From Mobula hypostoma (lineage: Eukaryota): a stretch of DNA of 64,000 nt. A program made the translations under genes and the position numbers. The notes beneath the pieces were generated by a model. The model saw nothing but the letters and a program-made list of their open reading frames with translations, made no database searches and was not told the DNA's origin. Positions 10,394 to 35,929 of the stretch are shown one piece after another (the first letter of the stretch is position 1; each line of letters opens with the position of its first letter). The stretch is from contig NC_086097.1 of assembly GCF_963921235.1 (NCBI RefSeq), positions 5,580,001 to 5,644,000 of the forward strand. The letters run 5' to 3'.

Positions 10394-10607
10394 TTTTATG
10401 CATTGCGCTGTACTGCCGACACAAGAAAAATCAAATCTCCTGACATGTGAGTGATGATAAACCTGATTCTGATATGGGCCCCTATTGTGGACTGAGAGTG
10501 GAAGGGGAGAGGAGAATCATGGTTGGGTAATGGGGAAGGAAGTGGGGAGGGAGCAAAAAGCGCCAGGGAGACATTCTGTAATGATCAATAAATCAATTGT
10601 TTAGAAT

Positions 10608-11450
10608 AGATAGATAGATAGATAGATAGATACACTTTATTAATCCCGAAGGAAATTTGGTTTCGTTACAGCCGCACCAACCAAGAATAGAGCGTAAATT
10701 TAGCAATACAAAAAATCCCAACAATTAAACACCAAAATGCAAACTATGCCAGATGGAAAATAAGTCCAGGGCCAGTCTATTGGCTCAGGGTGTCTGACCC
10801 TCCACGGGAGGAGCTGCACGTTCGATGGCCACAGGCAGGAACGACCTCCCGTGCCACCAAGTGTTGTATCACGGTGGAATGTGGCTGAAGTCCAACAGTA
10901 AAAAGTTCAATATTCAGTCTGCAAACACGTTCCTCGATCGTAATACGCCCCGGATTGCACCATCCATTGTTAGCCAGAACAGTAAGCACCGAACACCTTT
11001 ATGCTTACCGCTGTCAGTGCACTTCCAGTCAGTCGGAACGGTATTACCCACCAAACTCCTCTTCTCCAAAAGTCTCTGTTGTCTCGACCCGGTCCTCTTC
11101 CCTCGGCTTTGTGATCCCCCTCTCCATCCTCTGTGTGTTTTCCTCTGGATTTCAGCAGGGGTGTCCGCCGCTCTGTTAGCTAAGCCGGCCGGTCTTTGCT
11201 GGTCCGTGAAATACACAATGCGACCCTGCTTCTGTCCCGCGTGTCGGGATGTAACCATTTCCAGCGCTAAAGAAAACCCAAATAAAACTCTTTCTACCAG
11301 CTTGTTAGAGAGGGTGCAGCTTCGACAGACATTTTACCGTGAGAGAAAAAAAATACAAAAAATAACGTAAATTAAAAAGTAAGAAGAAGAAAGTAAGAAT
11401 AGATGGGAATGGCAGTACCAGGCTGTGTGCACGACCGGCGCATGCGCACT
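10608..11450 (-). mobile_element. Internally deleted (5'+3') Rex1/Babar-type non-autonomous retroelement with (TATC)n tail
   Basis: Intact-looking 5' end, N-terminal ORF 10914..11258, APE remnant 'NNGWCNPGRITIEERVC', then a jump to the 3' end and (GATA)n at 10607-10632. Possible 'aat' TSD. Confidence 0.75.
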
Positions 11451-11569
11451 AATCAAATGACCTTGATTAGTGTTTTAAGGCTGGGTGTGTCTGCACCCAT
11501 GCTAACACCCCCCCCCCCCACACCCCGGCTCTCCTTCTCTACCACCCGTCACACAACCCTTCCAGACAA

Positions 11570-12340
11570 ACTGTAAATACTGAAAGGAAGAAATAATAAC
11601 AATAAATAAATACGCAATAAACATCATAAAAATGAGATGAAGAGTCCTTGAAAGTAAGTCTATAGGTTGAGGGAACAGTTCAGCGGTGGGGTGAGTGAAG
11701 ATGAGTGAAATTATCCCCACCGGTTCAGGAGCCTGATGGCTGACGTGTAATAACTATTCCTGAAATTGGTGGTGGGGATCCTGAGGTTCCTGTACCTTCT
11801 TTTTGATGGCAGCAGTAAACAGAGAGCGTGTCCTGGATCGTGGTGGTCCCTTATGATGGAAGCTGGTTTCCTGCAGCAATGCTTCATGTAGATGTGGTTA
11901 ATAGTGGGGATAGCTTTGTCCGTGATGAATTGGGTCGTACACACTATTTTTTGTGGGGTCTACCATTCAAGTGCATAAGTGTTTCCAGTAATGCAGCCAG
12001 TCAATATATTCGCCACCTCATATCTACAGCAGTTTGTCAAAGTCTTAAATGTCATACTGAATCACTGCAAATGTCTAAGGAAGTAGAGGCAATGCCGTGC
12101 TTTCTTCGCAATTGCACTGAAGTGCTGGGTCCAGGATAAGTCTTCTGAAATAATAACACTGAGGAAGATCGAGTTGCTGATCCCCTCCACCTCTGATCCT
12201 CCAATGAGGACTGGCTCATGGACATCTAGTTTCCTTCTTCCGAAGTCAATAATCAGCTCCTTAGACTTGCTGACATTGAATATGGGGCTGTTATGGCATC
12301 ACTTGTCCAGATTTTCATTTTCCCTCCTATATGCTGCACT
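11570..12340 (-). mobile_element. Rex1/Babar-type LINE 3' fragment
   Basis: ORF 11711..11944 reads 'IIRDHHDPGHALCLLLPSKRRYRNL..NSYYTSAIRLLN'. Confidence 0.8.
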
Positions 12341-12704
12341 TGAACCATTAGATCTATTTTATTCATGAAAAGACTTTACTTATATTGGTCGTGAATCACC
12401 TTCATTCCTGACGTATACAATAAATCTGGTAATGGGCTTTAACTATACTCTACCCATTATTTTTCTAGAGATGAGAGATTGCATAGCCCGTTAATAATTG
12501 AAACAAATCTATTAATATTCGTCATTATGCCTTCATCTAGGGTAATGCCATAACTCTGTTAGGTCTTATTCCAATGGCTCTTTTTGCACTACTTATTTAA
12601 TGTCCATATTTATATATACTTACTGTAATTTATAACTTTTATTATGTATTGCAATGTACTGCGGCCACAAAGCAACAAATTTTATGACATTTGCCAGTGA
12701 GACC

Positions 12705-13900
12705 TGATGTAGATTGGGGAACCACTTTGTCAGTCACCTTCGCTCCATTGACAAAAAAATCGGATTTCCTGGTGGCCAACTCTTTTAATTCCAATCCCCA
12801 TTCCCATTCCAACAGGTCACTCCATGGCCTCCTCTTCTGCCAGGATCAGACCACTATCAGATTGCAGGAGCAACACCTCAAATTCCAATTTGGTAGCCTC
12901 AAGGCTGAATACATAAACATTGATTTCTCCAGCTTCCAATAATTTATTTCCCCCTCTCCCTTCAAACTTCTTTAATTCCCCATGCTGGCCCACTTCTTAC
13001 CTCTTCACACTCACCTACCATCTCCCCTGGTGCCCCTCCTCCTTCCCTTTCACGCATGGTCCACAATCCTCTCAAATTCCTCTTTAGATAAGATTAGATT
13101 ATGAGGACACTCAGTCCTCGTTTATTGTCATTTAGAAATACATGCATTAAAAATGATACAACATTCCTCCAGAATGATATCACAAGAAAACACAGGATAA
13201 ACAAAGACTAAGACTGACAAAACCACATAATTATAACATATAGTTACAACAGTGCAAAGCAATACCATAATTTGATAAAGAGCAGACCATGGGCACGGTA
13301 AAACAAAAGTCTCAAAGTCCTGATAGACTCATCATCTCACGCAGGCAGCAGAAGGGAGGAACTCTCCCTGCCATGAACCTCCAAGCGCCGCCAACTTGCC
13401 GATGCAGCGCCACTGGAAGCACCTGACTGCAGCGAACTCTGAGTCTGTCCGAAAACTTCGAGCCTCCGACTAGCCCCTCCGTCCTCTATGGAGAATTCCG
13501 ATCCCGCCCCAGCCGCCGAGCAACAAGCAAAGCCGAGGACTCGGGGTCTTCTCCTCCGGAGATTCTGGACCACACAGTAGCAGCAGCAGCGAAGCAGGCA
13601 TTTCAGAAGTTTCACCAGATGTTCCTCCGTGCTCTCCCGTCTGTCTCATTGCGAGCTGCGTTGTGTCACCATCTTCTCTTTCTACAACCTTTTACCTTTT
13701 CCATCTATCACCTCACAGTTTCTTATTTCATTTACCCACCCCCACCTACCTGGCTTCACCTATCACCTTCTAACACCCTTCTTCTGCTCCCCACCTTGTC
13801 CAGTCTTAATGAAGAGTCTCAACCCTAAACATCAATTGTTTATTTATTTCCATAAATGCTGTCTGATCTGCTGAGTTCCTCCAGTATTTTGTGTGTGTTG
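12705..13900 (+). mobile_element. Penelope-like element 3' part (GIY-YIG C-terminus + terminal region), split by the 13086-13675 insert
   Basis: ORF 12691..12942 ends 'RLQEQHLKFQFGSLKAEYINIDFSSF'. A pyrimidine-rich 3' region follows, with a degenerate hammerhead-like core at 13805-13830. Confidence 0.8.
13086..13675 (-). mobile_element. YY1-headed non-autonomous retroposon, copy 1 (internal deletion near the 5' end)
   Basis: Homologous to 17206-17856 and 20842-21466. TSD ctcttt (13080-13085 / 13676-13681). 3' stem GAGGAC-tgagt-GTCCTC plus an (ATCTA)-like tail. Confidence 0.85.
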
Positions 13901-14473
13901 CCTGTCATATTAAACCTGATTCTGATTGTGATTCCGATTTTTTTCACCCTTTTGTTGTCCACTTAAATACTAATGAAAAATACTATTTGCTACACATAGG
14001 ACCCTAATATCCAATTGATTAATTTGCAAGAGATTTTTATTAGCTTACACTTCAACGTGAAATATGCTTTTAGCATATTATATCCCACTTTGTTTTCTTT
14101 TGAGAATTTAACTAATTTTAGTGTCAAAATCGAGTTCAGCATTCCTTTGTTACTCCAGTTATCTAAAGCTGTGGATGAATGTAATCTTGCATTCACCTCA
14201 GCCTTTGACAATGGGTATCTATATTTGCATAAATTTAGGTGTAATCTTAAAGACAGAAAATAAAACACTGTAAAAAGGAAACATTCAATGCCCAATCTTC
14301 TAGTTTAAACAATTAATGATGACACTTCAGATATCATACAAAGTTATCAAAGCAAATAGAATTTTAAATCTTGATTTGCATGTAAGCCTTTAATCAAGTA
14401 TAATATCTGGATGACTGGTAATGTGTATTTAACATGCACATCTCAGACTTATTTGTATGCGTATTTGTTGAAT

Positions 14474-15013
14474 GAATGGTTCCTTAAGGTTGTTTTAGCT
14501 GGGGGAGGTAGTGGGGATAACCTCTCACTATCTATTAAATGCTCCCAATGGTGTACATCTCAAATAGCCTCTGACAACTAAGTCCACCTCTGGCCTTCAC
14601 GTGTAGCTTATCTACTGAGCCTGGTGGAACCATTTCTACTGACAGAAGAGGGGCAAAGACAGGTTACTAGCACATTAAAAGCAGTCGCTTCAGGCAGATG
14701 GGGCTCATCGGCTGTGGTTGGCAGCTCATCAGAAGGAGAACACTAATCTCAAACCTCCGCTGTCTTGAGGCTCTACCCACTCATGGAGAAGGATTCCGGA
14801 GTAATCCAAGGGAAAAATCTGGAGCTGGAGTGCCTAAGGCAGTCTTACGTTGAGTTCAATGCTGCTGATGCTAAACCGTAAGGGTCTCTGCCATCCCTTT
14901 GGATTCACTAGCTGCGTGGAGAGGGGGAGCCAGCTACATGTGCAGCAGCTTAATGTCTATATTGTGCAGCTGGGTGCAACAGTCCTGATCTATCCCGACC
15001 AACAGAAGGCCTC
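14474..15013 (+). mobile_element. RTE-related non-autonomous retroelement, copy 1
   Basis: TSD atttgttgaat (14463-14473 / 15014-15024). Homologous to 43811-45493. No ORF. Confidence 0.7.
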
Positions 15014-19947: not shown

Positions 19948-20039
19948 AAGAGTCATAATACCTTTATGATAGAGAGGGAGGCAATTTGGCCGTTGAATCT
20001 ATAATAAAGAGCAAATTTGTAATTTATACTTATGACTCT

Positions 20040-20490
20040 GTGGTCAAGTACAACTCCAAGTTAAGTTTGCTGCCAACGCAATTGTTGGTTGAATCAAAGG
20101 TGGTGACAAATTGGCGTACGAAAGAGGAATTGAAAAGCTGGTTGAATGGTGCCACAACAGCAACCTCTCCGTCAACACCAGCAAACCACAGAGCTGACTG
20201 TTGACTACAGGAGGAATAAACCAGAGGTCCATTCCCTCATTAGGGGATCAGAGATAGAGGTTCGGTAACTTTAAATCACTTGGCATTATTATAGCAGAGG
20301 ACCTGTTGTGAGGCGACAAGCGAGTGCCATCACAAAGAATGCTCAGCAATGCCTCTACTGTTTTAGAAGCTTAAGCAGAATTGGCATGTTATCTTAAACT
20401 TTGGCAAACTTTTATTGATGCAAATTGGACAGTACCCTGACTGGTTGCATCATGGTCTGGTATGGAAACACCATAAACCAAAAAGAAAAT
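20040..20490 (+). mobile_element. Decayed Rex1/Babar-type RT fragment
   Basis: 'aagtttgctgcc' (KFADD remnant), 'ggtgccacaacagcaacctctccgtcaac', 'gctcagcaatgcctctac'. Confidence 0.65.
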
Positions 20491-20841
20491 CTGAGGATAA
20501 TATATCATGAGGTATATGTACTTCAATAAATTTACATTGAACTTTGATGGGCACTGGAGATAGCTGTTAAACCCTCTCTCACGTCTCCAGAACTTCATGT
20601 TCACTTAGGTCTCTTGCATGTACTGAGTGTTTCTAACTTCAGTGATTTATGGACCCTCTCTTCTAGATGGATGAATAATGTTTTTCCAAATTCCCTATAA
20701 TTCTCTTACCAAATCCTTTAAATCTATCTCCTCGAGATGTTGGTAACACTGTTAAAGGAAATGTTTTTCCTATTCATCCCACAGAGGCCTTTAATAAATC
20801 CATAAACCCCTCAATTAAATTACTTCTGCAATCCGAGTAAT

Positions 20842-21466
20842 GGAGGGAGGAGAAGATGGCGGCGCGATGCAGCACGCGCGGCTGTTCCGAATGAATATCG
20901 TACGTGTTAAGTAGGGGGCCATGCACAATCCAGATTTGATGGAGACAGCCGTGAGAAGCGCAGAGGAACATCTGGAGTAACTTCTGAAATGCCTGTTTCA
21001 CTGCCGCTGCTACTGTGCGATCGAGAATCTTCGGAGGGGAAGGCCCCAAATCCTCGGCTTTGCGTATCACCTGGTGCCGGGGCCGGGGTTGAAGTGCTCG
21101 GTGTCGAATAGGTGGTCGAAGGCTCGGAGTTTTTCGGATGGACTCAGAGTCGGACCGTGGTCGGATGTTTCCAGAATGCTGCAGCAGCAAGTTGGCGGTG
21201 CTGGAGGTTTACCGTCTGCGTGAGATGATGGGACTTTCGAGAGATTTTGAGACATTTACTGTGCCATGGTCTGTTCTTATCAAATTACAGTATTGCTTTG
21301 CAATATATATGTCATATGTCATAATTATGTGGTTTTTGTTAGTTTTTAAGTCGGTTTGTCATGTGTTTTTGTGATATCATTCTGGAAAACCATTTTATCA
21401 TTTCTTAATGTACGCATTACTAAATGGCAATAAAAGGGGACTGCGTGTCCTGATAATCATAAATCA
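20842..21466 (+). mobile_element. YY1-headed non-autonomous retroposon, copy 3
   Basis: Starts ggagggaggagaagatggcggc; same body and 3' stem-loop/tail as copy 2. Possible TSD taat. Confidence 0.9.
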
Positions 21467-21769
21467 TAATTCTTTAATCTTACATTGCTAGTCCTTTGTC
21501 ATAAAAATGACTTCCCATCCTTTGTCACCTTATTGTGTATTTCCTGTGTTCTCTGTTCATTGCTATCACATATATCCTATGGAGCAGAGACAGAACACTA
21601 CAGAATATTCCTTCTAGGACTGAATTAATGTTGGATAATTTTATTCCCTGTCCCCTGGCAAGTATGTAATTGGTCATGCGCTTTGGTAGACAAAATAAAA
21701 GGAGAGAACATCTAAAAATCTGAAGTGCTAAGGGACTTGGGAGTCCTTGTGCAGTCTATTACTAAAGTG

Positions 21770-22180
21770 CTTCTCTCTTCAGCTAAGGTGGCATGCAGAG
21801 GGTGAGAAACATTGTCCAGTATCTCCAGGATTTTTCACAGGATCCTTTGTTTTACCACAGCCTCCAGTGTGGCCAGTTTGACTCCTAAAACAGAGCCAGC
21901 CTTTCTAATCAGTTTATTGACCCTGTTGGCAGCACCCAAGTTGATTCCATTGCCCCAGCACACCACCGCACAGAAGATTGTACTGGCATCAACAGAGTGG
22001 TAGAACATGTGAGGAAGAGGCCTGCAAACTCCAAAGAACTTCAGAGTCCTCAGGAAGTCGAGGCGACTCTGGCCCTTCTTGTACACAGTCTCTGTGTTGA
22101 TGCTCCACTGAGGTCTGTCATCCCAGTGCACCTCCAGTACTTGTAGGTCCTCACCATCAAAAGTAACAGGGAGCAGAACC
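21770..22180 (-). mobile_element. Rex1/Babar-type RT C-terminal fragment
   Basis: ORF 21835..22230 reads 'KKGQSRLDFLRTLKFF..FCAVVCWG..NKLIRKAGSVLG'. Confidence 0.85.
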
Positions 22181-22182
22181 TG

Positions 22183-22310
22183 CTCCTGATGAGTCTTGGG
22201 CCAAAACATCGACTGTTCACTATTTTCCATAGATGCTGCCTGGCCTGCTAAGTTCCTTCAGCATTTTATGTTTGCTGCTTGGATTTCCAACATCTGCAGA
22301 CTTTCTGTTG
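22183..22310 (+). mobile_element. Penelope terminal fragment with hammerhead-like core
   Basis: 'cctgatgagtcttgggccaaaacatcgac...gatgctgcctggcctgctaagttcc', homologous to 13800-13900 and 49405-49505. Confidence 0.65.
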
Positions 22311-25300
22311 TTCGCGATTAAACAATCTTGATTGTTGACTCTTGAAATATCTGCTCCAGGTGGAACATAATACTTGTCAGGGCCTTAAAACAATCTTGAA
22401 TCTTGAGTTACCACAAACTGTTACACTGTCTGCAATTCTGTATTCAGTACCTCCCACAACAATTCCTGGCAACTCATTTTATACACTCCCTACAGGTGCT
22501 CCATAGGCAATTCCTTTGAAAGTTATACTTGTATTACATAGTACATTAGCAATTCTCATCTTCTGAGGTTTTATGTAGAATTTACCAGATGACTAGTTGT
22601 CTTATCTCTGGTCCCCCTCTACATATGTTCATTTATTTATTGTATCTGTGGTCTTTGATTAGTTTTTAATAAATAGTTTCCACATTGAGCTGCATACTGA
22701 TTGTGTCCATCTGGATGGCCTCAGGCTAGACTCAGAGCTTGGCCTCAGGAGAGAAAAATTACACCCTAGATGGGATAATTCAATGTATGCAACAATCCAC
22801 AGCATATCAGGAGATTTGCTACAGGCTATACCGTATAATTCTTCCAGAATTATTCAGGTTTTAAATCATTAGTTTAAGTATACCTATGTTTGGAGTGAAA
22901 TTGAGATATAGTGTGCATTTAAGACCATAAGACTAAGATATAGGAGCAGAAATAGGCCATTTGGCCCACTGAGTCTCCTCAGACATTTCATCATGGCTGA
23001 TCCAATTTTCTTTCAGTCCCACTCTCCTGCCTTTTCCCCGTATCCCTTCAGGCCCTGACCAATCTTAAATCTATCACCTCTGTCTCAGACTGATCAATTC
23101 CACAGATTTACCACTCACTGACTGAAGAAACTCCTTCTCATCTCTATTCAGAAATGACACCCCCTCTATTGTGAAACTGTGTCATGTGGTCCTAGATTCT
23201 CCCACCACAGGAAACCTTCTCCACATGCACTCTATCAAGGCCTTTTGCTATTCTATAGGTTTCAATTAGGTCACGTCTCATTCTCTCATTCTTCTGAGTT
23301 CCAGTGAATACAGGCCCAGAGCCATCAAATGTTCTTTATATGACAAACCATTCAATCCTGGAATCGTTTTCATGAACCTCCTTTCAATTCTCTCCAGTAT
23401 CAGCACAACGTTTCTAAGGGGCCCAAAACTGCTCACAATGCTCCAAGCGAGGGTTTATCAGTGCTTTATAAAGTCTCAGCATTGCATCCTTGCTTTTATA
23501 TTTCCCTCGGGATCAATGAAGTATGAGTATGACTATGACTACTATGCTAGTCGTCTTGAAATGAATGCTTACATCATATTTTCCTCTCTCACAACAGAGT
23601 CAACCTACCAATTAGCTTCCAGGGAAAATTGCACAAGGACCCCCAAGTCCCTTTATGACTCACATTTTTGTATTTTCTCTCCATTTAGCAAATAGTCAAC
23701 CCTTTCAATTCTTCTGTCAAAGTGCATGACCATACACTTCTCAGCACTATATCCCATCTGCCACTTCTTTGCACATTTACCTAATCTGTACAATTCCTTT
23801 TGTAGCCTTTCCACTTCCTCGAAATTACATGGCTCTCCGACCATCTTTGTATCACCACAAACTTTGCAACAAAGCCATTAATTCTGTCATCCAAGTCATT
23901 GCCATATAATCTAAAAAGAATTAGTCCAACACAGACCCTATGGAACACCACTAGTCACCAGTTGCCAACCAGAAAAGGCTCCATTTATTCCTTCTGTTTG
24001 CCTCCTGCCAATCAACCACAGTATTATTCATTCGAGATTCTTTCCTGTAATGCCATAGGCTCATAGTTTGTTAAGCAGCTTCATGTGTGGCACCTTTTCA
24101 AAGGCCTTCTGAAAATCCAAGGACACAACATTAACCAATTTTCCTTTGTCTATCCTGTTTGTTATTTCTTCAAAGAATTTCTACAGATTTGTCAGGCAAC
24201 ATTTTCCCTTGAGGAATCCATGCTGACTACGGCCTATTTTATCATGTGCCTCCAAGTACCCTGAAACCCTATCCTTAACAATTGATTCCAACATCTTCCC
24301 AGCCGCTGAGGTTAGACTAACTGGCCTATAATTTCCTTTCTTCTGCCTCTCTCCCTTCTTGAAGAGTGCGTGACATTTGCAATTTTCCATTCTTCTGGAA
24401 CTAATCCAGAATCCAGTGATTCTTGAAAGATCATTACCAATGCCTCCACAATCTCTTCATCCACATCCATCAGACCCTGGGGTTTACACCATCTGACTCA
24501 GGTGACTATCTACCTTCAGACCTTTCAGTTTCCCAAGAACCTTCTCTCTACTTATGGAAACTACACACACTTCATGACCCCTGACACCTGGAAACTCTAC
24601 CATACTGCTAGTGTCTTTCACAGTGAACACTGATGCAAAATACTTGTTCAGTTCATCTGCCATTTCCTTGTCCCCCATAAGCACCTCTCCAACATAGTTT
24701 TCCAGTGACCTGATATCCACTTTTGTCTCTTTTACTCAATATATCTGAAGAAACTTTTGTTATTTTTGTTAATACTATTGGCTCGCTTAATTTTGTATTC
24801 CATCTTTACCTTCTGAATAATATTTTAAGTTACCTTTTGTTAGTATTTAAAAGCTTCCAATCCTCTAACTTCCCACTAATCTGTGTTTTATTATGTGCTC
24901 TCACTTTGGCTATTATGCTGGCTTTGGCTTCTCTTGTTGACCACAGTTGTGCATCTTGCCTTTAGAATACTTTCTCATTGGGATGTATAGATCTTGTGCC
25001 TGCCAGGTTACTTCCAGAAATTCCAGCATAACTGCTCTGCCGTCATCCCTGCCAGAGTTCTTTTCCAATCAATTCTGGCCAACTCTTCTCTCATGATATC
25101 CACATCTGCCTCCATTTTACCCTTTATGTATCTGAGAAACTTTTTGCATCCTCTTTAATATTATTGGCCAACTTATTTTTCTATCTTGTTTTTACCTTCT
25201 CGATTTTTTTTTAAAGTTGCCTTCTATTGGTTTTTAAAAGCTTCCCAATCCTCTAACTTACCATTATTTTTTACTCTATTATATGTCCTCTTTGGCTTTT

Positions 25301-26204
25301 ATAATGGTTTGAGTTGACAATGTATCATCTTTCCTTTAGGATACTTCCTCCTCTTTGGGATGTATATATCCTGTGCCTTCCGAATTGCTTCCAGAGATTC
25401 CAGCTATTGCTGTGTTCTTTCCAATCAGTTCTACTTTTCCAAGTGTTATTTCCCAATCACGTTTGGCCAGCCCCTCTCCAGTGCCTCTGTAATTCCCTTT
25501 ATTCCACTGCATCTACCATCCACACCTCCCACATACTAACTGCTATCGCCCCGATCTTCACCTCTCCCAGCCTTCACCTTCCACCAACTCCCCAGTCATC
25601 ATGGACTCACCTTCACGGCTGAGCAGGTGAGAAGGGTTCTGGATAACTCAGACATGGCAAAGCATTAACTGGATGAAGTGAACCCCAAGATCCTGAAGTG
25701 GTGTGCTGAGCAGCTGTGTGCCGTTCTCCAGCAAAATTTCAATCTGAGATTCGGCATGGAAAGGGTCTCAACCGTGTGGAAAGCATAATGTGTGGTCCCA
25801 GTACCCAAGCAGTACCCAAAAGTCCTGAATGACTACCGTCCAGTGAGACTGACCTCACACATCATGAAGACTTGAGAGGCAGGTCCTGGCTCACCTCCGA
25901 CCCCTGGTCAGATCAACCATTGATCCCCTGCAGTTTGCCTACCAGGAGAACATTGGAGTCGATGATGCTGTCATCTATCTGCTGAACAGAGCCTGTTCCC
26001 ATTTGGATAAGCACTGTGAGGATTGTGATTTCTCAAGTGCCTTCAATACCACACAACTCTCATTGCCGAGGAAGCAGCTCTGGCAGACCACACTTTGTGC
26101 AGCTTCAGAGCTGTGTGTCAGATATGGCTATAAGCAGCACTGGGGCCCCACAGGGGACTGTGGTGGCTCCTTTCCTGTTTTCCCTGTATACTGCAGACCT
26201 TAGA

Positions 26205-26898
26205 AAGATAGATACATAGAAATCTACAGCACATTACAGGTCCTTCGGCCCACAAAGTTGTGCTGATCATGTAACCTACTCTGGAAGCAGGCTAGAATTT
26301 TCCTGCTGCATAGACCTCTATTTTTCTAATCTCCATGTACCTATCTAAGAGGCTCTTACACGACCCTATTGTATCTGCCTCTAGCACTATCGCTGGCAGA
26401 GCATTCCACGCACCCACCACTCTGAAAAGTTTACCTCTGACGTGCCGCTGATACCTCCTTCCAAGTGCCTTAAAATTAAGCCCCCTCATGTTAGCCATTT
26501 CAGCCCTGGGAAAAAGCCTTTGGCTAACCACTTGAACAATGCCATCTTATACACCTCGATCAGGCCACCTCTCATCCTTCGTCGCTCCAAAGAGAAAAAG
26601 CCGGGTTCACTCATAAGGCACGCTCTCCAATCCAGGCAACATCCTCGTAAATCTCTTCTGCATTCTCTCTGTAGTATCCACATCCTTCCTGTAATGAGGT
26701 GATCAGAACTAAGCAGTACTCCATGTGGGTTCTAACTCAAGTATTATATAGCTGTAACATTACCTCATGGCTCTTGAACTCAATCCAACAGTTGAGGAAG
26801 CCAACACAGCATACACCTTCTTAACACCACTGTCAACCTGTGTAGCAGCTTTGTGTGTCCTATGGACACAGACCCCAAGATCTTGCTGATCCTCCACT
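26205..26898 (-). mobile_element. CR1 3' fragment nested in the Rex1-type element
   Basis: 'QDLGVCVHRT', 'FSLERRRMRG', 'VVGAWNALP' and a CR1 tail. Confidence 0.85.
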
Positions 26899-27240
26899 TT
26901 AAATATAACTGAGTCATGTCTTCTGATGATATTCTTTGATGACTCAGCAATAGTTGGGTGCATACAGGGAGGAGCGGAGGATGAATACAGGGCCCAGGTG
27001 GACAAATTTGTCAAATGGTGCAAGCTGAATTGTCTGCAGCTCAACATCAGTAAGACAGAGGAGATGATGATGGACCTTAGGAAAACTAAGCCTGCACTGT
27101 TCCCTGTTAATATTGATGGTGAGGACATGGATGTGGAGAGGACCTACCAATACTGGAGGTACACATGGATGACAGACTTGAGTGGAATACCAACACAGAG
27201 GCTGTCCACAAGGGCCAGAGTTGCATCTACTTCCTGTGGT

Positions 27241-27541
27241 CATAGAAACATAGAAAATAGATGCAGGAGTAGGCCATTCGGCCCTTTGAGCCTGCACCGC
27301 CATTCAGTATGATCATGGCTGATCATCCAACTCAGAACCTTGTACCTGCCTTCCCTTCATACCCCCTGATCCCTTTAGCCACAAGGGCCATATCTAACTC
27401 CCTCTTAAATATAGCCAATGAACTGACCTCAACTGTTTCCTGTGGCAGAGAATTCCACAGATTCACCACTGTCTGTGTGAAGAAGTTTTTTCTAATCTCA
27501 GTTCTAAAAGGCTTCCCCTTTATCCTCAAACTGTGACCCCT
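27241..27541 (-). mobile_element. Short CR1 3' fragment nested in the Rex1-type element
   Basis: 'RGHSLRIKGKPFRTEIRKNFFTQ' and a (tttctatg)n tail; close to the 40249-43399 subfamily. Confidence 0.9.
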
Positions 27542-28920
27542 CGGTCCTTTGGAACAAGCATGCCTCTCCTTCACATGTTCTACCAGTCTGTTGTCACCAT
27601 TACAACCTTCTATGTGGTGGTGGGTGGTGTGCTGGGGCAATGTCATCAACACGGGTGATGCCAACAGGCTCAATAAACTGATTAGAAAGGCTACCTCTGT
27701 TACAGGAGTCAAACTGGACACATTGGAGACTGGTAGATCAAAGGACCCTACGGAAAATCCTGGCAATTCTGGACAATGTTTCTCACCCACTGCATAACAC
27801 CTTGGCTGAAGCGAGGAGCACTTTTAGTAATAAACTAAGACAACTGTACTGCTCCAAAGAGTGCTATGTGAAGTCATTCTTGGCCATTAGATTCTATAAT
27901 GAGTCTACCTATAGCTGGGGATGTGATGACCCTCCTTTTAGACTGCTTGAGGTAACATTTTTTCTTACTTACTTCTCTTCTAATACTTGTATATCCATGC
28001 ACTTGTAATGCTACTGTGACACTAACTTCCTCTGGGATCGATATATCTATCTATCTAAACCTGACATTTGACTTTAGCGTGTTCTCAAATTTTAGTGTGA
28101 ATTCCCTAAAATTTTAATTCCTTAAAATATTAAGATCACTCTCCACTAACAGTTTTCTTTTCTTAAGGTCACTAATCAATTCATGTTCATTGCACAACTC
28201 TCAGTACAGAATAGCTGGTCCTCTGGTGGGAACAGTGAGCTGCTCTAGAAAAGCCATCTCATATGCATTCTAGAAATTCCTCCTCTTGGGATCCAGAACC
28301 AACCAGATTTTTCCAAGCTGACTGCATTTTGAAAGCCCCATGATTATCGTAGCATTGCTCTTTTGGTATGCACTTTCTATCTCCCATTGTCACGGGTAGA
28401 CTACATCTCTACTACTATTTGGAGGTCTGTATATAACTCCCATCAGGGTCTTCTTACCCTTGCAGTTCCTTTGCTCTTTCCACAATGATTCAACATCCTC
28501 TGACCCTATGTCACCTCTTTCGAATGATTTGATTTCATTTTTACCAACTGAGCAACACCACCCCCTCTGCCTACCTTCCTCTCCTTTCGAAACAATGTGT
28601 TTCCTTAAGCTTCCAGCTATAATTTTCTTTCAGCAATGACTTAGTGATATTCCCTAAAACATCATATATGCCGATCGGTAACTGTGCTACAAGTTCATCT
28701 ACCTAATTCCATATAATGAACAGATTTAAATATACCACTTTCAGTCCTGTATTCACCTTTTACATTACAACTTATCCTGTTGACTGACTACAGAAGCTTT
28801 ACAACTGGTTATCAAATCTATTCATACTATCCTTTAGCCCTTTCAGTCACATACTTACAGATACTGCTTGCAGCATTTCAAACCATCTTCCTCCAGCACA
28901 AATTGGTCAAATGCCAAGTC

Positions 28921-30146
28921 TTTCTTCTCCTTTTTTGAGTTTTGACGGCAGTTGGCATCCACACTGTTGCATTACTGCCATCTACAGGATTTATTGTCCC
29001 TCATTGTCCATTTGCTTTAAAGTCGTCTTTCCAGTCCCGTCACCCTTAAAAAACTAAACAACCATTTCCTCCCCTGATCACTCTCCCCACATTCCAATAA
29101 ACCTTTAACGCTGTTCTCTACCAGTCCTATTTTGTGTAACTGTTGTAACATTTGTTGCCTTTCCTGTGCAAATTTCTGGCATAAAATAAGGATATGCTCT
29201 ACTGTTTCAGTCTCCTGACATAGATCGCAAAAACCTGTTGGATGCTTATTTATGATGGCCAGAGAACCATTAAGGTTGCTGTGCCCAATTCTCAGTCTAC
29301 TTATAATTACTTTCTCCTTCCGCTTTACTCCCCTACTTCTTCCTATATCTACTCTGCTCTGAATTGAATGTAAATGTCTTCCTTTTATTGCTCTATCCCA
29401 AAGCTACTGCCACTGTTGATTTATCCTTCTCCACGCTATGCTCTTCCCCTCTGATTTTGATAGTTTAATATTGACCTGTATAGATCCTTTTTTGACTGCT
29501 GCTTTTGCCAGCCTCTCTGCTGTCTCATTTCCCATAATATCCGAATGTACTGGAACCCACATAAATGTGATATTTTTGCCCTTGTCTAGCCAGTCTTGAA
29601 TTTACAAACTGGATTTCATAAAGCAGATCCTGGTGACCTCTAGCTGTAGCCGGCTTAATGCTTGCAAGGGCCGACACAGAATCGTTACATATCACAATAT
29701 TATTACAATCAAACTGCTCACTCCATTCTACTGTTAACAATATGGCAAACATTTCAACTGCATATACACTCAAGCAATCAGGTGTTCTCTTGCTAATTTC
29801 CTCTTGATAACTTGGCACAACAATTGCAGACCCTGTTGCACCTGTTTCTGGATCCTTTGATCCATCAGTAAAAATCTGTATGTCTTTATACTTACATTCC
29901 CTATAACTATGATATTCACTGAGTATATCAGCCAGCTTACTACTGTGTTTAATCTTAAGCAATTTCAAATCTACAGAGGGATTTTCTAATACCCAGAAAG
30001 GTCTGACAGGCCACACCACACTTGGACAAAACTCTTTATCGTATACACCCATATCTTTTGCTGTTTGCTCTCCTGTCCAGCCAAAACTTTCGTTTTGTGT
30101 CCTCTCCTTCTCCCAGCATGTCTGCAACACCCTTTTTTGTAGGATG
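28921..30146 (-). mobile_element. Nimb/I-clade LINE copy A (5'-truncated; RNase H + 3' tail)
   Basis: ORF 29525..30130 has 'IFTDGSK', 'SVYAVE', 'ICNDSVSAL'; a Cys/His zinc-knuckle remnant follows; tail GGCAGTAATGC..GGATGCCAACTGCC. Confidence 0.85.
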
Positions 30147-30160
30147 GAATGACAAGTCCT

Positions 30161-32408
30161 GTCTGTCTGTATCTTGTTTTACGGCGGTTGGCATCCAGCT
30201 TAATGGTACATTACCGCCACCCTCTGCTCCAGAATGTGCACTAGACATACATTCTAAATCCCTTCACACACACACCTACACTTCACCCTCCCATCTTTGA
30301 CCATCCTAGTATCCTATTCCTGTTTATTCGTCATATTCTATAAAAAACCCCTGTACCCCTTAAAAACGCTAAAAATACCCGGACTTGTGCTCTCTCACCC
30401 ATGCCCAGCAACCCTTTTAATGTGAATTCCTGCATCCCCAACTCCCTTAATTTATTTCTCATCATCTCTCTCTGTATCCCATACTTCCTGCAACTCAGAA
30501 CTACATGTTCTACTGACTCCTCTTCCTGACATTCCTCACACAATCCTGTCTGGTGTTTCCCTATCATTTTCAATGTTTTGTTTAATGCACAGTGCCCCAG
30601 CCTTAACCTAGTCCACACAATTTCCTCTCTTCTGTTTCCATTACCTACCCTAGTAACTGCAATACTCTTTTGTATTTGATATAAATGCCTCCCTTTCCCC
30701 TCCCTGTCTCATCTTTCTTGCCATATTCGGTTGACTTTTTCCCAGATTACACACTTAACCTCTGCTTTACTGATACTAATGTGCATTTCCACATTTTCTT
30801 TCTTTAACGCCCTCTTTGCCAACTCATCCACCCTCTCATTCCCCTTCACCCCTACATGTGCTGGAACCCATGGAAATTTTACCTGACCTCCCTGATTTGC
30901 AATTCTTATAACTAACTGAAGGACTTCATAAAGTACATCTTGCCAACTGTTTGTGTGAAAAGACCTTAAACTTGCTAGAACTGAGGATGAATCTGAACAT
31001 ATCAATGCTTTGGATGGTCTGGCTTTCTGCACCCATTGCAACGCAACCAACACTGCCAGCATCTCCACTGTAAACACCCCTAACTTATTAGATGTTCTTC
31101 TGCTGATTCCAATTTCTTTTGCTGGTATTACCACCCCAAACCCTGTCACTCCTGTTTCAGGTTCCTTCGCACCATCTGTATAAATGTGAGTATAATCACT
31201 ATACTTTTCCATCACATGACAGTTAAATGCATTTACCAAATCTGTTTTATATCTTTCTTTCCTTTTTACCTCTAACAAATGCCAGTCTATGTCAGGCCAT
31301 ACAAGCTTCCATGGAGCTACAACCGGATAAACTACTGAAGGACTTATCCTCAGATCAAACACTCCACATTCTTTCGTGATATCATTCCCTGCCCGACTAA
31401 AGGTATCCCTCTGAAACCTCCCATTTTCCCAGCACTCCTGCAACACTCCTTTAGTAGGGTGAAAATCATTGTGCCCCTGCAAGTTAGCCCAGTAGTTTGC
31501 CATCAGTTGCATCCTTCTTAGTTCCAAAGGCATTATTCCCATTTCTACCTGTAGGACTGACACTGGTGACATTTTAAAAGCCCCACTGCACACTCTCAAG
31601 GCCTGAGCCTGAATCACATCCAGTTTCCTTATAAGAGACCTAGCTGCTGATCCATATACTACATTTCCATAATCCAATACAGATCTTACTAAAGCCACAT
31701 ACATTCTCTTCAAAGCTGAACAACTTGCTCCCCATTCCCTACCAGTCAAACATCTCATCACATTTATTACTTTTTTACATTTCTCCTCAACTTTCCTGAT
31801 ATGGTCTGCCCATGTTAATCGTGAATCAAATATAACTCCCAGAAATTTAAATGATGCAACCCTTTCTAATTCAACCCCATACATCCTTAACTTCTTCCCT
31901 ACCTCAACCCTTTTCCTGGTAAAAAATACAGTTTGAGTTTTATCTACTGAAAATCTACATCCCCAATCATAACCGCAGTCCATCACTTCATCAATTGCTT
32001 CTTGTAGTTTCCTGATTATATAGTCCATGTTCCTGCCTCTTTTCCACAAGGCCCCATCATCCGCAAACAGTGACCTACCTATATCCACTGGTACCTTTGT
32101 GAAGACATCATTGATCATAATCATGAAAAGTAATTGGCTAATCACACTACCTTGAGGTGTGCCATTTTCCACTATGTACTGTTTTGATAATTCTGATCCA
32201 ATCCGAACTTGAATTTTTCTACCAAACAAAAAATCTTTAATCCAATTAAAAACTCTCCCACCAACCCCCATCTTGTGCAGTTTAATTAATAATCCTTCCT
32301 TGCACATCATATCATAGGCTTTTTCAATGTCAAAGAACACTGCCACTACTGACTCTCTATTTGCCTGGGCCTTCCTTATTTCAGTCTCTAACATAATCAC
32401 TGAGTCCA
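30161..32408 (-). mobile_element. Nimb/I-clade LINE copy B (5'-truncated)
   Basis: 13-bp TSD aatgacaagtcct (30148-30160 / 32409-32421); tail GGCGGTAATG..GGATGCCAACCGCC + (gaca)n. Confidence 0.92.
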
Positions 32409-32409
32409 A
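30331..32409 (-). pseudogene. Nimb ORF2: RT + RNase H + CCHC knuckle; 5'-truncated, one in-frame stop at 30709-30711
   Basis: 'FFDIEKAYD', 'GTPQGSVIS', 'LFADD', RNase H 'YTDGAK..E..SDS..WVPAHVGVKGNERVD', 'TRLRLGH..CEEC..ESVEHVVLSC'. Confidence 0.92.
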
Positions 32410-32560
32410 ATGACAAGTCCTCTTACAGAAACCTCTTATATACCTTCCTGAGTGAGCAGGGCAAGGGTGGGGTTTAATGCTTGACTCTGATTGGTTGGAT
32501 CTGAATCATCTAGTCCTGATTAGTTAATTGGAATTGGCTTGTTCTGTTTGGTCAATAAGG
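32409..32560 (-). promoter_or_regulatory. Predicted Pol II core promoter module (CCAAT-like boxes, CACCC, TATA, Inr), left arm
   Basis: Minus strand: CCAAT at 32494-32490 (~-80), CCCCACCC at 32472-32465, TATATAAG at 32442-32435, Inr-like TCATTT with A at 32411 (TATA at -31). Confidence 0.6.
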
Positions 32561-32744
32561 GGCCACATATTCCGAAAGAGAGATGGGATTAGGGAAGAAT
32601 GGCAGTTTGTGGCATTATCTAATGACAGCATTAAGCATTCATGAAGAATTGCAACTACAGGGTGATGCTAATAGAGAACTGCATGCTGAACTAGATTGTC
32701 TAAAGTAGACAACTCCAGGACATATTTGATTGGAACACCACAAG

Positions 32745-32800
32745 TCTAGCAGGTGGCAGTAATGCACTGAAAAACTGGTTGCCAACTGCCTTTAAAAAAA
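32745..32800 (+). mobile_element. Isolated Nimb-type 3' tail
   Basis: ggtggcagtaatgcac..ggttgccaactgcc + poly-A; same tail as copies A and B. Confidence 0.7.
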
Positions 32801-32819
32801 ATGGAGTGGGCTGGGCCTA

Positions 32820-32958
32820 AAATATTGACCAATCGGAACAAGGTCCATTCAAACTAATCAATATGGAATAGGCAATTGAGCCAGCCAGTCAGGATCAAGC
32901 TTTAAGCCCCACCCAAGCCCCGCTCACTTGTGGAGGTGTGTCTGAGGACTTGGCATTC
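32820..32958 (+). promoter_or_regulatory. Second, inverted copy of the promoter module (TATA segment deleted), right arm
   Basis: Aligns to the reverse complement of 32409-32560: tattgaccaa..gaacaag..aactaatca..tcaagc..ccccaccc..gctcact..gaggacttggcattc. Confidence 0.65.
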
Positions 32959-34058
32959 AGGTCAGATGGCTTCAGGAAAGGATGATATGTGCTATTATAT
33001 GTTTGAACATATGGGTGACAGCTCTCTTGAGATAATATTAAAATTTTTGAATAATATTTGGAGTTTAAGCCATCTTCCTTCCTCATGCAAAATGGCACTA
33101 GAAGTGCTTATTCTAAAACCTGGGATTCCCTGTTGGATCCTTTTAGTTACAGACCAATAACATTGCTGTCCTATTTGTGTAAAGTTATGGAGTGTATGGT
33201 AATAGAGTAGTTGAATCATATTTTGGAAAAGAGAGGTGAAATAGCATTTTATTGGAGTGGATTTTGGAAGGGTAGAATGAGATTGAATTCAGTTTTATGT
33301 TTGAGAGACAATATTAGCAAGGCACAGGTACCTAAAGAAGTAATAGCAGTAGTTTATGATATTGAAAAAGCATATGACATGTTATGTAGGGAAGGTCTTT
33401 TGACTAAATTATGGAAATTAGGAGTGAGAGGAAGGCTATATAATTTTTTCAGTGTTTTTTTTTATTTGGATGGTTTTGGCAGAGAGGGGTAGGTAAGGTA
33501 TAAGGCTTCTATGAGGTAGAGATGGGACCCCATAAAGCTGCGTTTGTAGGCCTTTATTATTTAATATTGATTAACAATCTTTTCTCTGAGACAGGTACTG
33601 GGGTGGGTAAATCACTTTTTTGCAGATGATGGAGCTTTATGGAATAGAGGTAGAAATTTTAATCTAATTGTACATAGGATGCAATTAGCTATTAATAAGG
33701 CCAAACAGTAGGCAAATAGATGGGATTTTGAGCTTTCAATAGCTAAAATGCAAGTTATGCATTTTAGAACTGTACTTAATTTGAAATTATCTGTTCAAAT
33801 TCTTGAAGAAGTGTCAATGGTAAGATTTCCCAGCATGTGGCTGGATAATAAGCTGACATGGAAGTAGCATATCAGTAAAATAATTGATAAATGTAAAATA
33901 GTATTAAATATCCTTGGGGAGCTACACAAAAATCTTTGTTGAGCATTTATATTTGTTTATTAGATCTGTTCTTTATTATGGCAGTGTGGCTTATGGATCA
34001 ACTTCATCTCTAAATTTAAAATGTTTGGATGTGATATAAGCACAGGCATTAAGATTGC
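32959..34058 (+). mobile_element. Nimb/I-clade LINE copy C (decayed RT), joined to the right promoter arm
   Basis: 'GKDDMCYYMFEH', 'YDIEKAYDML..GLL.KL.KLGV.GR', 'gcagatgatggagctttatgg' (ADDGALW). Confidence 0.85.
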
Positions 34059-34790
34059 ACCAGTTTCTCAGCCACACATTCATCTGTCAAATCATTCTAT
34101 ACTTATCCTAAATGGCCTGTGGCACAGGCAAGAATCCAGAGATTAATACCCTGGGCATCCTGTTTTTCTGCTTTCCACCTAGCTTCCTAAATTCTCTCTT
34201 CAGGACCTCCTCACCTTGTCTACCTATCTTATTGGTGTCTACCGAGACTTCTGGCTGCTCGCACTTGCCCTTGAGAGTGTCAGGGACCCGATATAAGATA
34301 TCCCTGACCTTAGCACCAGGGAGGCAACATACAGTCCAGGCATCTCTATCGTGCCCACAGAAACTCATCTTCATTCCTCTGACTATTAGTCTCCTATCAG
34401 CACTGCAGTTCTCCTCAGCGCTCTGCTTTTCTGAGCCACAGCACCAGACTTAGTGGCAAAACCTGGACACCTGGCTTCCTCCAGGTAGGTTGTTCCCCTC
34501 AGCAGTATCTAAAGTTATATACTTATTATTGAAGGGAACAGCCTCAGGTGTACTCTGCCCTGGCTGTGCATTTCCTCTCTTACTCCTGACAGTCACCCAG
34601 TTACCTGTCTCCTTCAACCTAGGGGTGACTACCTCCCTGTGGCTCCTGTCTATCACCTCCTCATTCTCCCGTATGGGTTGAAGATACTTAATACATTCTC
34701 TCAGGAGCTGCAGCTGAATGCACCTGGGGTAGATTTGTTTATCCTACATCCTACACGCAGTATAATACACTGCAGCTAAAGCCATTCTCA
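34059..34790 (-). mobile_element. CR1 ORF1 fragment
   Basis: 'IDRSHREVVTPRL', 'VCCLPGAKVRD', 'VLISGFLPVP'. Confidence 0.85.
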
Positions 34791-34899
34791 CTACACTACT
34801 ATGCCCTGACAAATGAGGAATGAACAAGTGAGAACAAAAAGAGAGCAGGTGATAATCCAGAAAACATCTGGAAAGTTAGACCTATGCAAATGTCTGGAG

Positions 34900-35370
34900 C
34901 GAAGAGGCCACTGCGCAGATCATAGAAAGCTGCATGAAGCTGCAGGCTCAAACAGCTCCACCATGGGGAGCACGGGGAGCTCCATCCCTCCCCAGGCATC
35001 GAGGGCATCATCAAAAGGCGATAGCTCAAAATGGCCGAATCTGTAATCACGGACCCCCTTCACTCAGAACATGTCCTCTTCTCATTGCTACCATCAAGGA
35101 TGAGGTACAAGAGCCTAAAGAAACAGTATTTCAATATTTCAGAAACAGCTTTTTCCCCTCTGCTATCAGATCTCTAAATAGACAATGAACCCATGACCAC
35201 TACGTCACTGTGTTTTGCTCTCTTTTTGCACTGCTTACTTAATTAAAACCATATATTTTTATTGTAACTTATAGTTTTTTTCTTATTATTATGTATTGCA
35301 ATGTATTGCTACCACAAAACAAATTTCAGGACATATGCTAGAGAAGTTAAACCTGATTCGGATTCTGTTA
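34900..35370 (+). mobile_element. Rex1/Babar-type 3' fragment
   Basis: 'FRNSFFPSAIRSLN' followed by a typical tail. Confidence 0.7.
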
Positions 35371-35929
35371 CAAATAATTAACAAAATAGATATAATATCT
35401 AAATTGTCTCCATGTCATAACAGAATGAATACCAGCTACCATGGCCATATCAATAATGCATTTCCTCCTCTGCTTACTGCCATAACTTATTAGCATGTCA
35501 TATCTGACATTATTCACAATTTTCCATTGACAATAATTTAATTGTTAGTGCATTTTGCAAGACAGTAATCTATTTACTGTCAAAATGACACTAATTATAT
35601 TCTTTCACTCTTGTTCTTGTATCTTAAAAATAATTATGCTATGACTCATTTCTTTTGTTTTAGTTCTAGCTTTGTTTCTTAGCTGAAGTAACAATCAAGA
35701 TAACCTGCTTTTGTGCTTGGAGAAATTATTGATTGATTAATTTTTTGAAAAGCTACACTTTTGCCAATCTGAGTGAAGGACAGATAAGACACTAAGACAA
35801 AGGAGCAGAATTAGGCTATTTGGCACATCGTTATTCCATCATGGTTTATTTATTCTCAAACCCATTCTCCCGCTTTTCCCTGTAACCTTTGACACTCTGA
35901 CTAAGCAAGAACCTATCAACCTCCATCCT

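What the first reader, a model, noticed from the sequence alone, without database searches (positions are those of the whole stretch)
28909..34058. Three Nimb/I-type LINEs at one short target site overlapping a predicted transcription start: possible site-specific LINE
Seen: the minus strand reads promoter module - site (32421-32409, AGGACTTGTCATT) - copy B - site (30160-30148, identical) - copy A - site (28920-28910, GACTTGGCATT) - flank. Two differently truncated, diverged LINEs therefore sit in tandem, bounded by three copies of one site. Copy C, on the plus strand and with a third truncation point, begins right after GAGGACTTGGCATTC (32944-32958) in a second copy of the module. The site contains an Inr-like TCATT 31 nt downstream of TATATAAG. 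Established: tandem arrays separated by a regenerated target are typical of sequence-specific non-LTR elements (R1, R2, Tx1 groups). I know of no such specificity for the Nimb/I clade, but cannot check the literature. Inference: this family targets either the sequence or the Pol II start site, which would place 5'-truncated copies in sense orientation under a borrowed promoter.
Basis: partly seen in the sequence, partly recalled or inferred. Interest (0 to 1): 0.88.

Follow-up and report, generated by a model that had tools for sequence, protein, structure and literature searches.

The report
LINE copies reusing one 13-base site
Two or three decayed jumping genes of the RNase H-bearing LINE kind sit at four copies of one short DNA motif, which suggests that this motif steers where they insert, but a single locus cannot show that the whole family is site-specific or that it aims at a gene start.

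Summary
The motif GACTTGKCATT is real. It occurs 4 times exactly against 0.14 expected, each time at a LINE junction. Copy B (30161-32408, minus) is young: it has a 598-codon open frame and is flanked by an identical 13-base repeat, the usual duplication length for Nimb LINEs. Copy A (28921-30147) is flanked by the motif at 10 of 11 bases. A contig from a second species joins a module-like sequence and a motif-like 13-mer to a LINE cut at a fourth point. Recurrent use of this site is therefore supported.

- Copy C has no 3' end. It covers residues 458-835 of the LINE protein and A covers 878-1254, on opposite strands between the two halves of one older repeat. A and C may be one LINE with an inverted 5' part.
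- The TATA box is in only one of the two modules.
- B's lineage has thousands of dispersed copies while the module is low-copy, and a fourth LINE tail (D) lacks the motif. Strict specificity and targeting of a transcription start are not shown.

A rival reading, fusion by template jumping, fits the constant end of the module but not the position of B's repeat. No genome was available for the genome-wide test.

The parts
28127..28760 (.). Left half of an older host repeat that the whole block interrupts
   Evidence: 72-77% identical to copies at 3948-4543 and 16823-16492. Many contigs carry on as the repeat consensus at 28715 and 28761 (table 7).
28761..28909 (-). Flank X, which follows the last motif copy; origin unknown
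   Evidence: Not significantly similar to the missing middle of the host repeat or to the modules: local alignment scores of 9-10 against shuffle means of 8.4-10.4. Its depth bin is low, 2,730.
28910..28920 (-). Motif copy after A's tail (GACTTGGCATT)
28921..30147 (-). LINE copy A: RNase H and C-terminal zinc-finger region, 3' stem-loop 28979-28947, tail 28946-28921
   Evidence: tblastn with P0001 covers residues 882-1254, with one frameshift and one stop. Pfam RNase_H E 9e-5, below the cut-off. The stem-loop folds with z -3.3. Two contigs of run X2 leave the window sequence at 30147.
30148..30160 (-). Motif copy between B and A (AGGACTTGTCATT); 3' copy of B's target-site duplication
   Evidence: Identical to 32409-32421.
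30161..32408 (-). LINE copy B: 5'-truncated reverse transcriptase, RNase H and zinc finger; 3' stem-loop 30218-30183; tail ending in ACAG repeats
   Evidence: The open frame 30709-32505 is 598 codons. Pfam RVT_1 E 9e-22 and RNase_H E 1e-15. 63% identical to P0001 residues 555-1251 without gaps. 13 contigs of run X1 carry on as LINE beyond 32408.
32409..32421 (-). Motif copy at the end of module 1; 5' copy of B's duplication
32422..32588 (-). Module 1: CCAAT-like motifs, a CACCC box, and TATATAAG at 32442-32435
   Evidence: Rfam finds nothing here at E up to 1.
32589..32801 (+). D: 3' end of a third related LINE or SINE-like lineage (hairpin 32755-32790, then TTT and an A run). The 5' limit is uncertain, at or before 32613.
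   Evidence: The hairpin aligns with those of A and B. A family member in run X5 aligns over 32613-32800 and then differs. Depth at 32661 and 32770 is about 13,000-15,000.
32802..32943 (+). Module 2, inverted relative to module 1; no TATA box
   Evidence: 75% identical to module 1 over 108 bases. The alignment shows a 12-base gap at the TATA region.
32944..32957 (+). Motif copy at the end of module 2 (GAGGACTTGGCATT)
32958..34057 (+). LINE copy C: decayed N-terminal half of the reverse transcriptase, with no 3' end
   Evidence: tblastn with P0001 covers residues 458-835 with many stops and frame changes. Its last base, 34057, corresponds to 31591 in B.
34056..34737 (.). Right half of the host repeat
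   Evidence: 67-79% identical to 4893-5602 and 16043-15448. 133-142 contigs per run (X1, X2, X5) carry on as the repeat consensus before 34056.

Best explanation
The 11-13 base motif (AG)GACTTGKCATT is a preferred integration site for at least two related lineages of an AP-endonuclease, reverse transcriptase and RNase H LINE.

Inferred mechanism: the element's endonuclease nicks the bottom strand just left of the motif and reverse transcription is primed there. The top strand is cut 11-13 bases further on, the stagger typical of Nimb LINEs. The motif is therefore duplicated, and its upstream copy stays available for the next insertion.

Inferred order of events at this locus:
(1) A low-copy module ending in the motif lay inside an old repeat.
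(2) An old LINE integrated at it, leaving A with its tail and the motif on both sides. C, with module 2 and the end of D, is probably the inverted 5' part of the same event or a broken second insertion.
(3) Much later the abundant lineage of B integrated at the upstream motif copy, at the same nucleotide, and made an exact 13-base duplication.

This is a preference, not strict site specificity. Most copies of B's lineage cannot lie next to a module.
For: Shown:
- 4 exact motif copies against 0.14 expected, all at LINE junctions.
- B is flanked by identical 13-mers and A by 10 of 11 matching bases.
- These lengths match the 10-15 base duplications, with a peak at 12-13, reported for zebrafish Nimb-2_DR (PMC4245944, passages read).
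- The repeat flanks the LINE alone, with the module outside it.
- B and A are true 5' truncations. 13 contigs (run X1) and 2 contigs (run X2) carry on as LINE beyond 32408 and 30147.
- B is young: 697 codons aligned without gaps and with one stop. A and C are decayed.
- In the second species (run X5), a 336-base contig matches 32409-32704 with 12 differences, and its first 40 bases do not match B. This suggests that B is absent from the orthologous locus (table 8).
- Another X5 contig joins a module-like sequence, 26 other bases (the same number as from the TATA box to the junction in module 1) and a LINE starting at 30546. The reverse complement of the last 13 of those bases matches the motif at 10 of 13 positions (tables 5 and 5c).
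- In a third species (run X15), one contig's match begins at 28909, the outer edge of the motif after A's tail, and is preceded by 183 unrelated bases (table 7).

Inferred: the nicking geometry and the order of events.
Against: - Tail D, which has the same hairpin, is not followed by the motif.
- Two tandem junctions of B's lineage in other contigs carry only the first 5 bases of the motif or none of it in sense (table 5c).
- B's lineage has summed depths of 64,000-214,000, against 850-14,000 in the bins that hold the modules. The module cannot be the usual target.
- C has no 3' end, so its junction may not be an independent event.
- All three 5' junctions are nearly clean joins, whereas 95% of truncated Nimb-2_DR inserts used microhomology or extra bases (PMC4245944).
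- The absence of B from the other species rests on a single table row.
- Only three 3' ends and two modules can be read in the window.
Confidence: 0.4

Rival explanations
1. Fusion by template jumping. The motif is the common 3' end of the LINE RNAs and of a roughly 170-base module RNA. During reverse transcription the enzyme leaves a LINE RNA at a random point and carries on at the 3' end of a module RNA or of another LINE RNA. This gives module-motif-LINE and LINE-motif-LINE fusions. No targeting is needed.
For: - A constant partner ending at one nucleotide is fused to LINEs cut at 3-4 different points. This is the signature of the WEIRD-MGL and U6-L1 chimeras (PMC2104539, abstract read).
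- Both modules start at about the same position. The start of module 2 directly abuts the A run of D, as in a second jump.
- The junctions are clean.
- The T/G variant of the motif pairs module 1 with B and module 2 with A.
- The X15 contig's match stops at the outer edge of the motif.
Against: - B's 13-base repeat flanks the LINE alone and not module plus LINE. In the published chimeras the repeats flank the whole fusion.
- The X5 contig suggests that module 1 and the motif were there before B.
- Two of the three B-lineage tails seen lack the full motif.
- The module has no hairpin like the LINE tails, matches no Rfam family, and has low depth for an RNA that would need to be abundant.
- The length of the motif equals the clade's duplication length, which this model leaves to chance.
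Confidence: 0.25
2. Module plus motif is the 5' leader of these LINE lineages or of internally deleted derivatives. The units module-motif-truncated LINE are then copied as wholes.
For: - Module 1 and module 2 differ about as much (75% identical) as B and C do (71.5% over 130 bases).
- Both modules start at about the same point.
- Read in the LINE frame, the module ends show similarity to LINE motifs in register: GF.K before B, L.E. before C.
- The depth of module 2 is compatible with that of C's lineage.
Against: - Four different fusion points would require four separate deletions that all start at one nucleotide.
- 13 contigs of B's lineage carry on into reverse transcriptase sequence, not into the module, beyond 32408.
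- A TATA box upstream of a start site would not be carried in the RNA.
- This model does not explain the motif after the tails.
- No protein in the large database carries the peptide encoded by the module.
Confidence: 0.1
3. Chance plus rearrangement. One old complex insertion carried its motif copies with it, and B landed at the old junction by accident.
For: - The scan looks at very many windows, so rare coincidences will be picked up.
- A and C can be explained as one event.
- LINE-rich DNA is full of nested insertions; the window holds at least 6 other fragments matching the LINE protein.
Against: - B's duplication is exactly the shared motif, at the same nucleotide as A's junction.
- A separate module-motif-LINE junction exists in another species.
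- 4 exact 11-mers against 0.14 expected.
Confidence: 0.1

Closest known systems
Zebrafish Nimb-2_DR and other fish LINEs of the I group (AP endonuclease, reverse transcriptase, RNase H)
   Same: RVT_1 followed by RNase_H and a C-terminal zinc-finger region. The full-length relatives of about 1250 residues, mostly from teleost fish, also carry the endonuclease; the best is 63% identical. The flanking duplications of 11 and 13 bases fit the reported peak of 12-13 (PMC4245944).
   Different: The passages read describe Nimb-2_DR integrating at many places in chicken cells and in the zebrafish genome and mention no fixed target. Here one motif recurs. Clade membership (Nimb, I or R1) was not tested against named references.
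Sequence-specific AP-endonuclease LINEs: R1 clade (R1Bm in 28S rDNA) and Tx1 clade (Keno, Mutsu; Tx1L inside the Tx1D transposon)
   Same: Repeated insertion at one nucleotide, a fixed short duplication, and head-to-tail arrays separated by the regenerated target. A target lying in another repeated element resembles Tx1L in Tx1D (recalled, not from a call). PMC4640811 (passages read) names the early-branched groups and the Tx1 and R1 clades as the known target-specific groups.
   Different: Those families sit almost only in their target. Here B's lineage is dispersed and abundant, the module is low-copy, and one related tail is elsewhere. This element has RNase H; its absence from Tx1-clade elements is recalled.
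Chimeric retroelements made by template switching (U6-L1 in mammals; WEIRD-MGL in Magnaporthe)
   Same: A constant 5' partner that ends at a fixed nucleotide is fused to variably truncated LINEs. The order D, module 2, C looks like a three-part fusion (PMC2104539, abstract).
   Different: Here the short direct repeat flanks the LINE alone, and the same motif also follows the LINE tails.
5' inversion of LINE insertions by twin priming (described for L1; one case noted for Nimb-2_DR in PMC4245944)
   Same: C and A lie on opposite strands. Their break points are 127 bases apart in LINE coordinates. The inverted part lacks a 3' end and abuts the flank, where 2-4 bases are shared by the LINE and the flank.
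   Different: The two parts are not joined directly. Two inverted modules, D and B lie between them.

Membership tests
I-group LINE (Nimb/I-like) | Reverse transcriptase followed by RNase H in one reading frame | tested here: met
   B: RVT_1 E 8.9e-22 and RNase_H E 1e-15 in a single 598-codon frame.
I-group LINE (Nimb/I-like) | N-terminal AP endonuclease | tested here: inconclusive
   All three window copies are truncated before it. The full-length relatives carry PF03372 and PF14529.
I-group LINE (Nimb/I-like) | Placement inside the Nimb or I clade, and outside R1, in a reverse transcriptase tree with named references | not tested
   No named reference sequences were at hand. The trees hold only unnamed relatives.
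I-group LINE (Nimb/I-like) | Target-site duplication of 10-15 bases | tested here: met
   13 of 13 for B and 10 of 11 for A, against PMC4245944.
Sequence-specific LINE (R1/Tx1 type) | Independent insertions at the same nucleotide of one target sequence | tested here: met
   B and A at module 1, and a junction in a paralogous module in run X5. C at module 2 may not be independent.
Sequence-specific LINE (R1/Tx1 type) | Nearly all copies of the family lie in the target | tested here: not met
   Depth of B's lineage is 64,000-214,000, against 850-14,000 in the bins that hold the modules. D is not at the motif. Two B-lineage tails lack the full motif. Whether the bare 11-mer follows most tails could not be tested.
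Sequence-specific LINE (R1/Tx1 type) | Empty copies of the target exist | tested here: inconclusive
   One X5 contig shows module 1 and the motif followed by 40 bases that are not B (table 8). Those bases were not shown.
Template-switch chimera | Constant 5' partner with a fixed 3' end fused to variably truncated LINEs | tested here: met
   Fusion points at P0001 residues of about 458, 563 and 878, and at window position 30546.
Template-switch chimera | Direct repeats flank the whole chimera | tested here: not met
   B's exact 13-base repeat lies between module 1 and B and again after B. No matching repeat lies upstream of module 1.
Twin-priming 5' inversion (A plus C as one LINE) | Two parts of one LINE, non-overlapping and adjacent in LINE coordinates, on opposite strands, with the inverted part next to the flank | tested here: met
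   C ends at B coordinate 31591 and A starts at 31463, a gap of 127 bases. The host repeat halves lie on the outer sides.
Twin-priming 5' inversion (A plus C as one LINE) | Both parts belong to one lineage | tested here: inconclusive
   A falls inside a 7-member clade with B (support 0.998). C, on a very long branch, falls outside it. The AU test does not reject C with A's clade (p 0.32 and 0.37).

The most novel reading that the evidence does not exclude
Related lineages of a vertebrate I/Nimb-group LINE home to an 11-13 base motif at the end of a low-copy, promoter-like module. Each insertion regenerates the motif, so arrays can build up. Copies sitting behind a module are transcribed together with it and carry module and motif to new places. 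This would be sequence-directed integration outside the R1 and Tx1 clades, and a route by which truncated LINEs acquire a foreign 5' leader or promoter.
Probability: 0.25. Interest if true: 0.75.

Novelty: new variant of a known kind. Interest (0 to 1): 0.5.

Why it matters
The paper consulted (PMC4640811) reports target-specific AP-endonuclease LINEs only from the R1 and Tx1 clades. A vertebrate RNase H-bearing LINE with a sequence preference of about 12 bases would add a third origin of targeting. It would also give a natural endonuclease with a long recognition site to study. If the module proves to be a transcribed leader, the locus would show how truncated LINEs obtain new 5' ends, which is an open question. 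If the template-jump reading is right, it would extend chimera formation to a fish-type LINE and an unknown RNA. Either way the claim now rests on one locus and a few contigs.

Tried and rejected
- Metagenome scan with a 16-base tail pattern: 120 loci, of which 0 carry the full hairpin. All are chance matches.
- Viral contigs searched with B's protein: 2 pattern matches, neither a relative.
- Protein database searched with the 40 residues that span module 1 and B: no candidate.
- Rfam over 28000-35000 at E up to 1: one match, far below its threshold (RsmY, 25.1 bits against 57), inside B. Nothing in the modules.
- Profile of the two modules against the window: only the two modules themselves score (E 2e-63 and 3e-49). 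The next best hits have E 0.67 or worse.
- Earlier findings of the scan: none for this genome or for these sequences. Two analogies from other genomes were not used as evidence.
- Flank X against the middle of the host repeat and against the modules: no significant similarity.
- Ranking 97 relatives by their scores against A and C did not separate lineages: Spearman 0.85 for A with C, and 0.93 and 0.87 for each with B.
- The first script that assembled translations of A and C lost pieces and its trees were discarded. One search is the one used.
- A splice-leader reading was considered and dropped. The bases before B's fusion point in the lineage consensus are not AG.
- The parts of the stretch without listed contigs, and the RNA status of the locus, remain open. 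No listed run is on record as RNA.
Full report
**What is there.** The window is repeat-rich eukaryotic DNA and no genome is held for it. Read on the minus strand from 32588 down to 28910, the order is:
- module 1
- AGGACTTGTCATT
- LINE copy B
- the same 13-mer
- LINE copy A
- GACTTGGCATT
- flank X

On the plus strand, module 2 (32802-32943) ends in GAGGACTTGGCATT and is followed by LINE copy C. The 11-mer GACTTGKCATT has 4 exact matches against 0.14 expected, and 0 of 100 shuffles reach 4. With one mismatch there are 7 matches against 3.27 expected; the 3 extra ones have no LINE next to them.

**The LINE copies.**
- B has RVT_1 and RNase_H in a 598-codon open frame.
- Its best full-length relatives are proteins of about 1250 residues, mostly from teleost fish, with AP endonuclease, reverse transcriptase and RNase H. 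The best is 63% identical.
- A, B and a fourth fragment D (plus strand, ending at 32801) share a 3' stem-loop, with a compensatory change between A and B. These are the only three such tails in the window.

**The setting.** The whole block from about 28761 to 34056 interrupts one copy of an older repeat. The left and right halves of that repeat match contiguous copies at 3948-5514 and 16900-15400, and about 310 bases of it are missing here. The 149 bases of flank X are not demonstrably part of that repeat or of the modules.

**A and C.** Measured against the relative P0001:
- C covers residues 458-835.
- B covers residues 555-1251. The first 8 of these fall in module 1 and the motif, so the LINE part starts at about 563.
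- A covers residues 882-1254.

In B coordinates C ends at 31591 and A starts at 31463, a gap of 127 bases. C has no tail and abuts the right half of the host repeat. A's tail points to the left half. The two lie on opposite strands. This is the layout of a LINE insertion with an inverted 5' part, except that two modules, D and B lie between the parts.

Phylogeny does not settle it. A sits with B in a 7-member clade (0.998). C, on a very long branch, falls outside it. The AU test does not reject C with A's clade (p 0.32 and 0.37). C therefore cannot be counted as an independent, ordinary insertion.

**Evidence from other genomes.** Contigs of four runs were laid at 80% likeness: two runs of one sample of the window's probable species, and one run each of two other organisms. 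Single-copy contigs have depth of about 15-20 in the first species.

| Region | Summed depth (run X1) |
|---|---|
| B's lineage | 64,000-214,000 |
| A's lineage | 2,500-5,900 |
| C's lineage | 850-4,000 |
| D's lineage | about 13,000-15,000 at two listed places |
| Bins that hold the modules (shared with B, C or D) | 850-14,000 |

B's lineage is thus a dispersed family of thousands of copies, and the module is far rarer.
- Contigs of B's lineage (13 in run X1) and of A's lineage (2 in run X2) leave the window sequence exactly at 32408 and 30147. Those of B's lineage carry on with sequence that codes for reverse transcriptase. Both copies are therefore true truncations that end at the motif.
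- In the second species, one 336-base contig matches 32409-32704 with 12 differences, and its first 40 bases do not match B. Other contigs of that run match A's 3' junction (2 differences in 282 bases) and C (11 in 465). I read this as the orthologous locus without B, but it is one table row and the 40 bases were not shown.
- A further contig of that run joins module-like sequence (up to 32435), 26 other bases and a B-like LINE starting at 30546. Reverse-complemented, the last 13 of the 26 bases match the motif at 10 of 13 positions, at the same distance from the TATA region as in module 1.
- In a third organism, one contig's match begins at 28909, the outer edge of the motif after A's tail, and is preceded by 183 unrelated bases.
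- Against a universal motif: two tandem LINE-LINE junctions of B's lineage carry only the first 5 bases of the motif, or none in sense orientation.

**Interpretation.** B's exact 13-base repeat flanks the LINE alone. Its length equals the duplication typical of Nimb-2_DR, which is 10-15 bases with a peak at 12-13 (PMC4245944). It lies at the nucleotide already used by A. B's youth and its probable absence from the sister species make it a later, separate event. This is most simply a target-site duplication at a preferred site. Published target-specific AP-endonuclease LINEs belong to the R1 and Tx1 clades (PMC4640811).

The main rival is fusion by template jumping onto RNAs that end in the motif, as in the WEIRD-MGL chimeras (PMC2104539, abstract).
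- It explains the constant end of the module, the common start of the modules, the abutment of D's A run on module 2, and the clean joins.
- It does not explain the position of B's repeat or a later arrival of B.

The two readings could be linked. Donor copies sitting in motif sites could give read-through RNAs that end in the motif.

**The promoter idea.** The TATA box with an initiator-like TCATT 31 bases downstream exists only in module 1. Module 2 lacks 12 bases there. No RNA run holds the stretch. Both modules begin at about the same point, which fits an RNA 5' end at the start of the module at least as well as a start at the motif.

**Unexplained.** Read in the LINE frame, the sequence upstream of each junction shows similarity to conserved LINE motifs in register:
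- GF.K before B. At base level 14 of 30 positions match the lineage consensus seen.
- L.E. before C.
- The H of a conserved HP motif, inside the motif copy before A.

This may be chance, microhomology that guided the truncation points, or a partial LINE origin of the module ends.

**Verdict.** Recurrent, nucleotide-precise reuse of one 11-13 base motif by related LINE lineages is supported. A site-specific family, three independent insertions and targeting of a transcription start are not. The genome-wide test remains to be done.

Noticed in passing
window 3948-5514 (+), 16900-15400 (-), 58370-57851 (-), and 28127-28760 with 34056-34737: At least four copies of one older repeat, 65-79% identical to each other. 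Depth in the read data is 20,000-40,000. Copy 1 lies next to a weak reverse transcriptase match at 3717-2389 on the minus strand (24% to P0001), so the repeat may be the 5' part of another LINE family.
   Followed up: partly
window 37062-38195 (+), 40482-43042 (+), 60063-60569 (+), 24333-23935 (-), 6935-6399 (-): Further LINE fragments only 22-31% identical to P0001, so other LINE clades. The one at 40482-43042 spans residues 5-874 and may be close to full length at its 5' side.
   Followed up: no
window 50001-54000: Strong strand asymmetry: GC skew 0.43-0.67, AT skew -0.39 to -0.59, GC up to 0.53. This suggests a long simple or low-complexity repeat.
   Followed up: no
window 32409-32440, 32944-32980, 30148-30172: In the LINE reading frame, the bases upstream of all three 5' junctions resemble conserved LINE motifs in register (GF.K; L.E.; H of HP).
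   Followed up: partly
tables 5 and 5c (contigs of runs X1, X2, X5): Head-to-tail LINE-LINE junctions of B's lineage with only 7-16 bases between the tail of one copy and the truncated start of the next. They look more frequent than random nesting would give and suggest end-to-end template jumps or insertion next to existing copies.
   Followed up: partly
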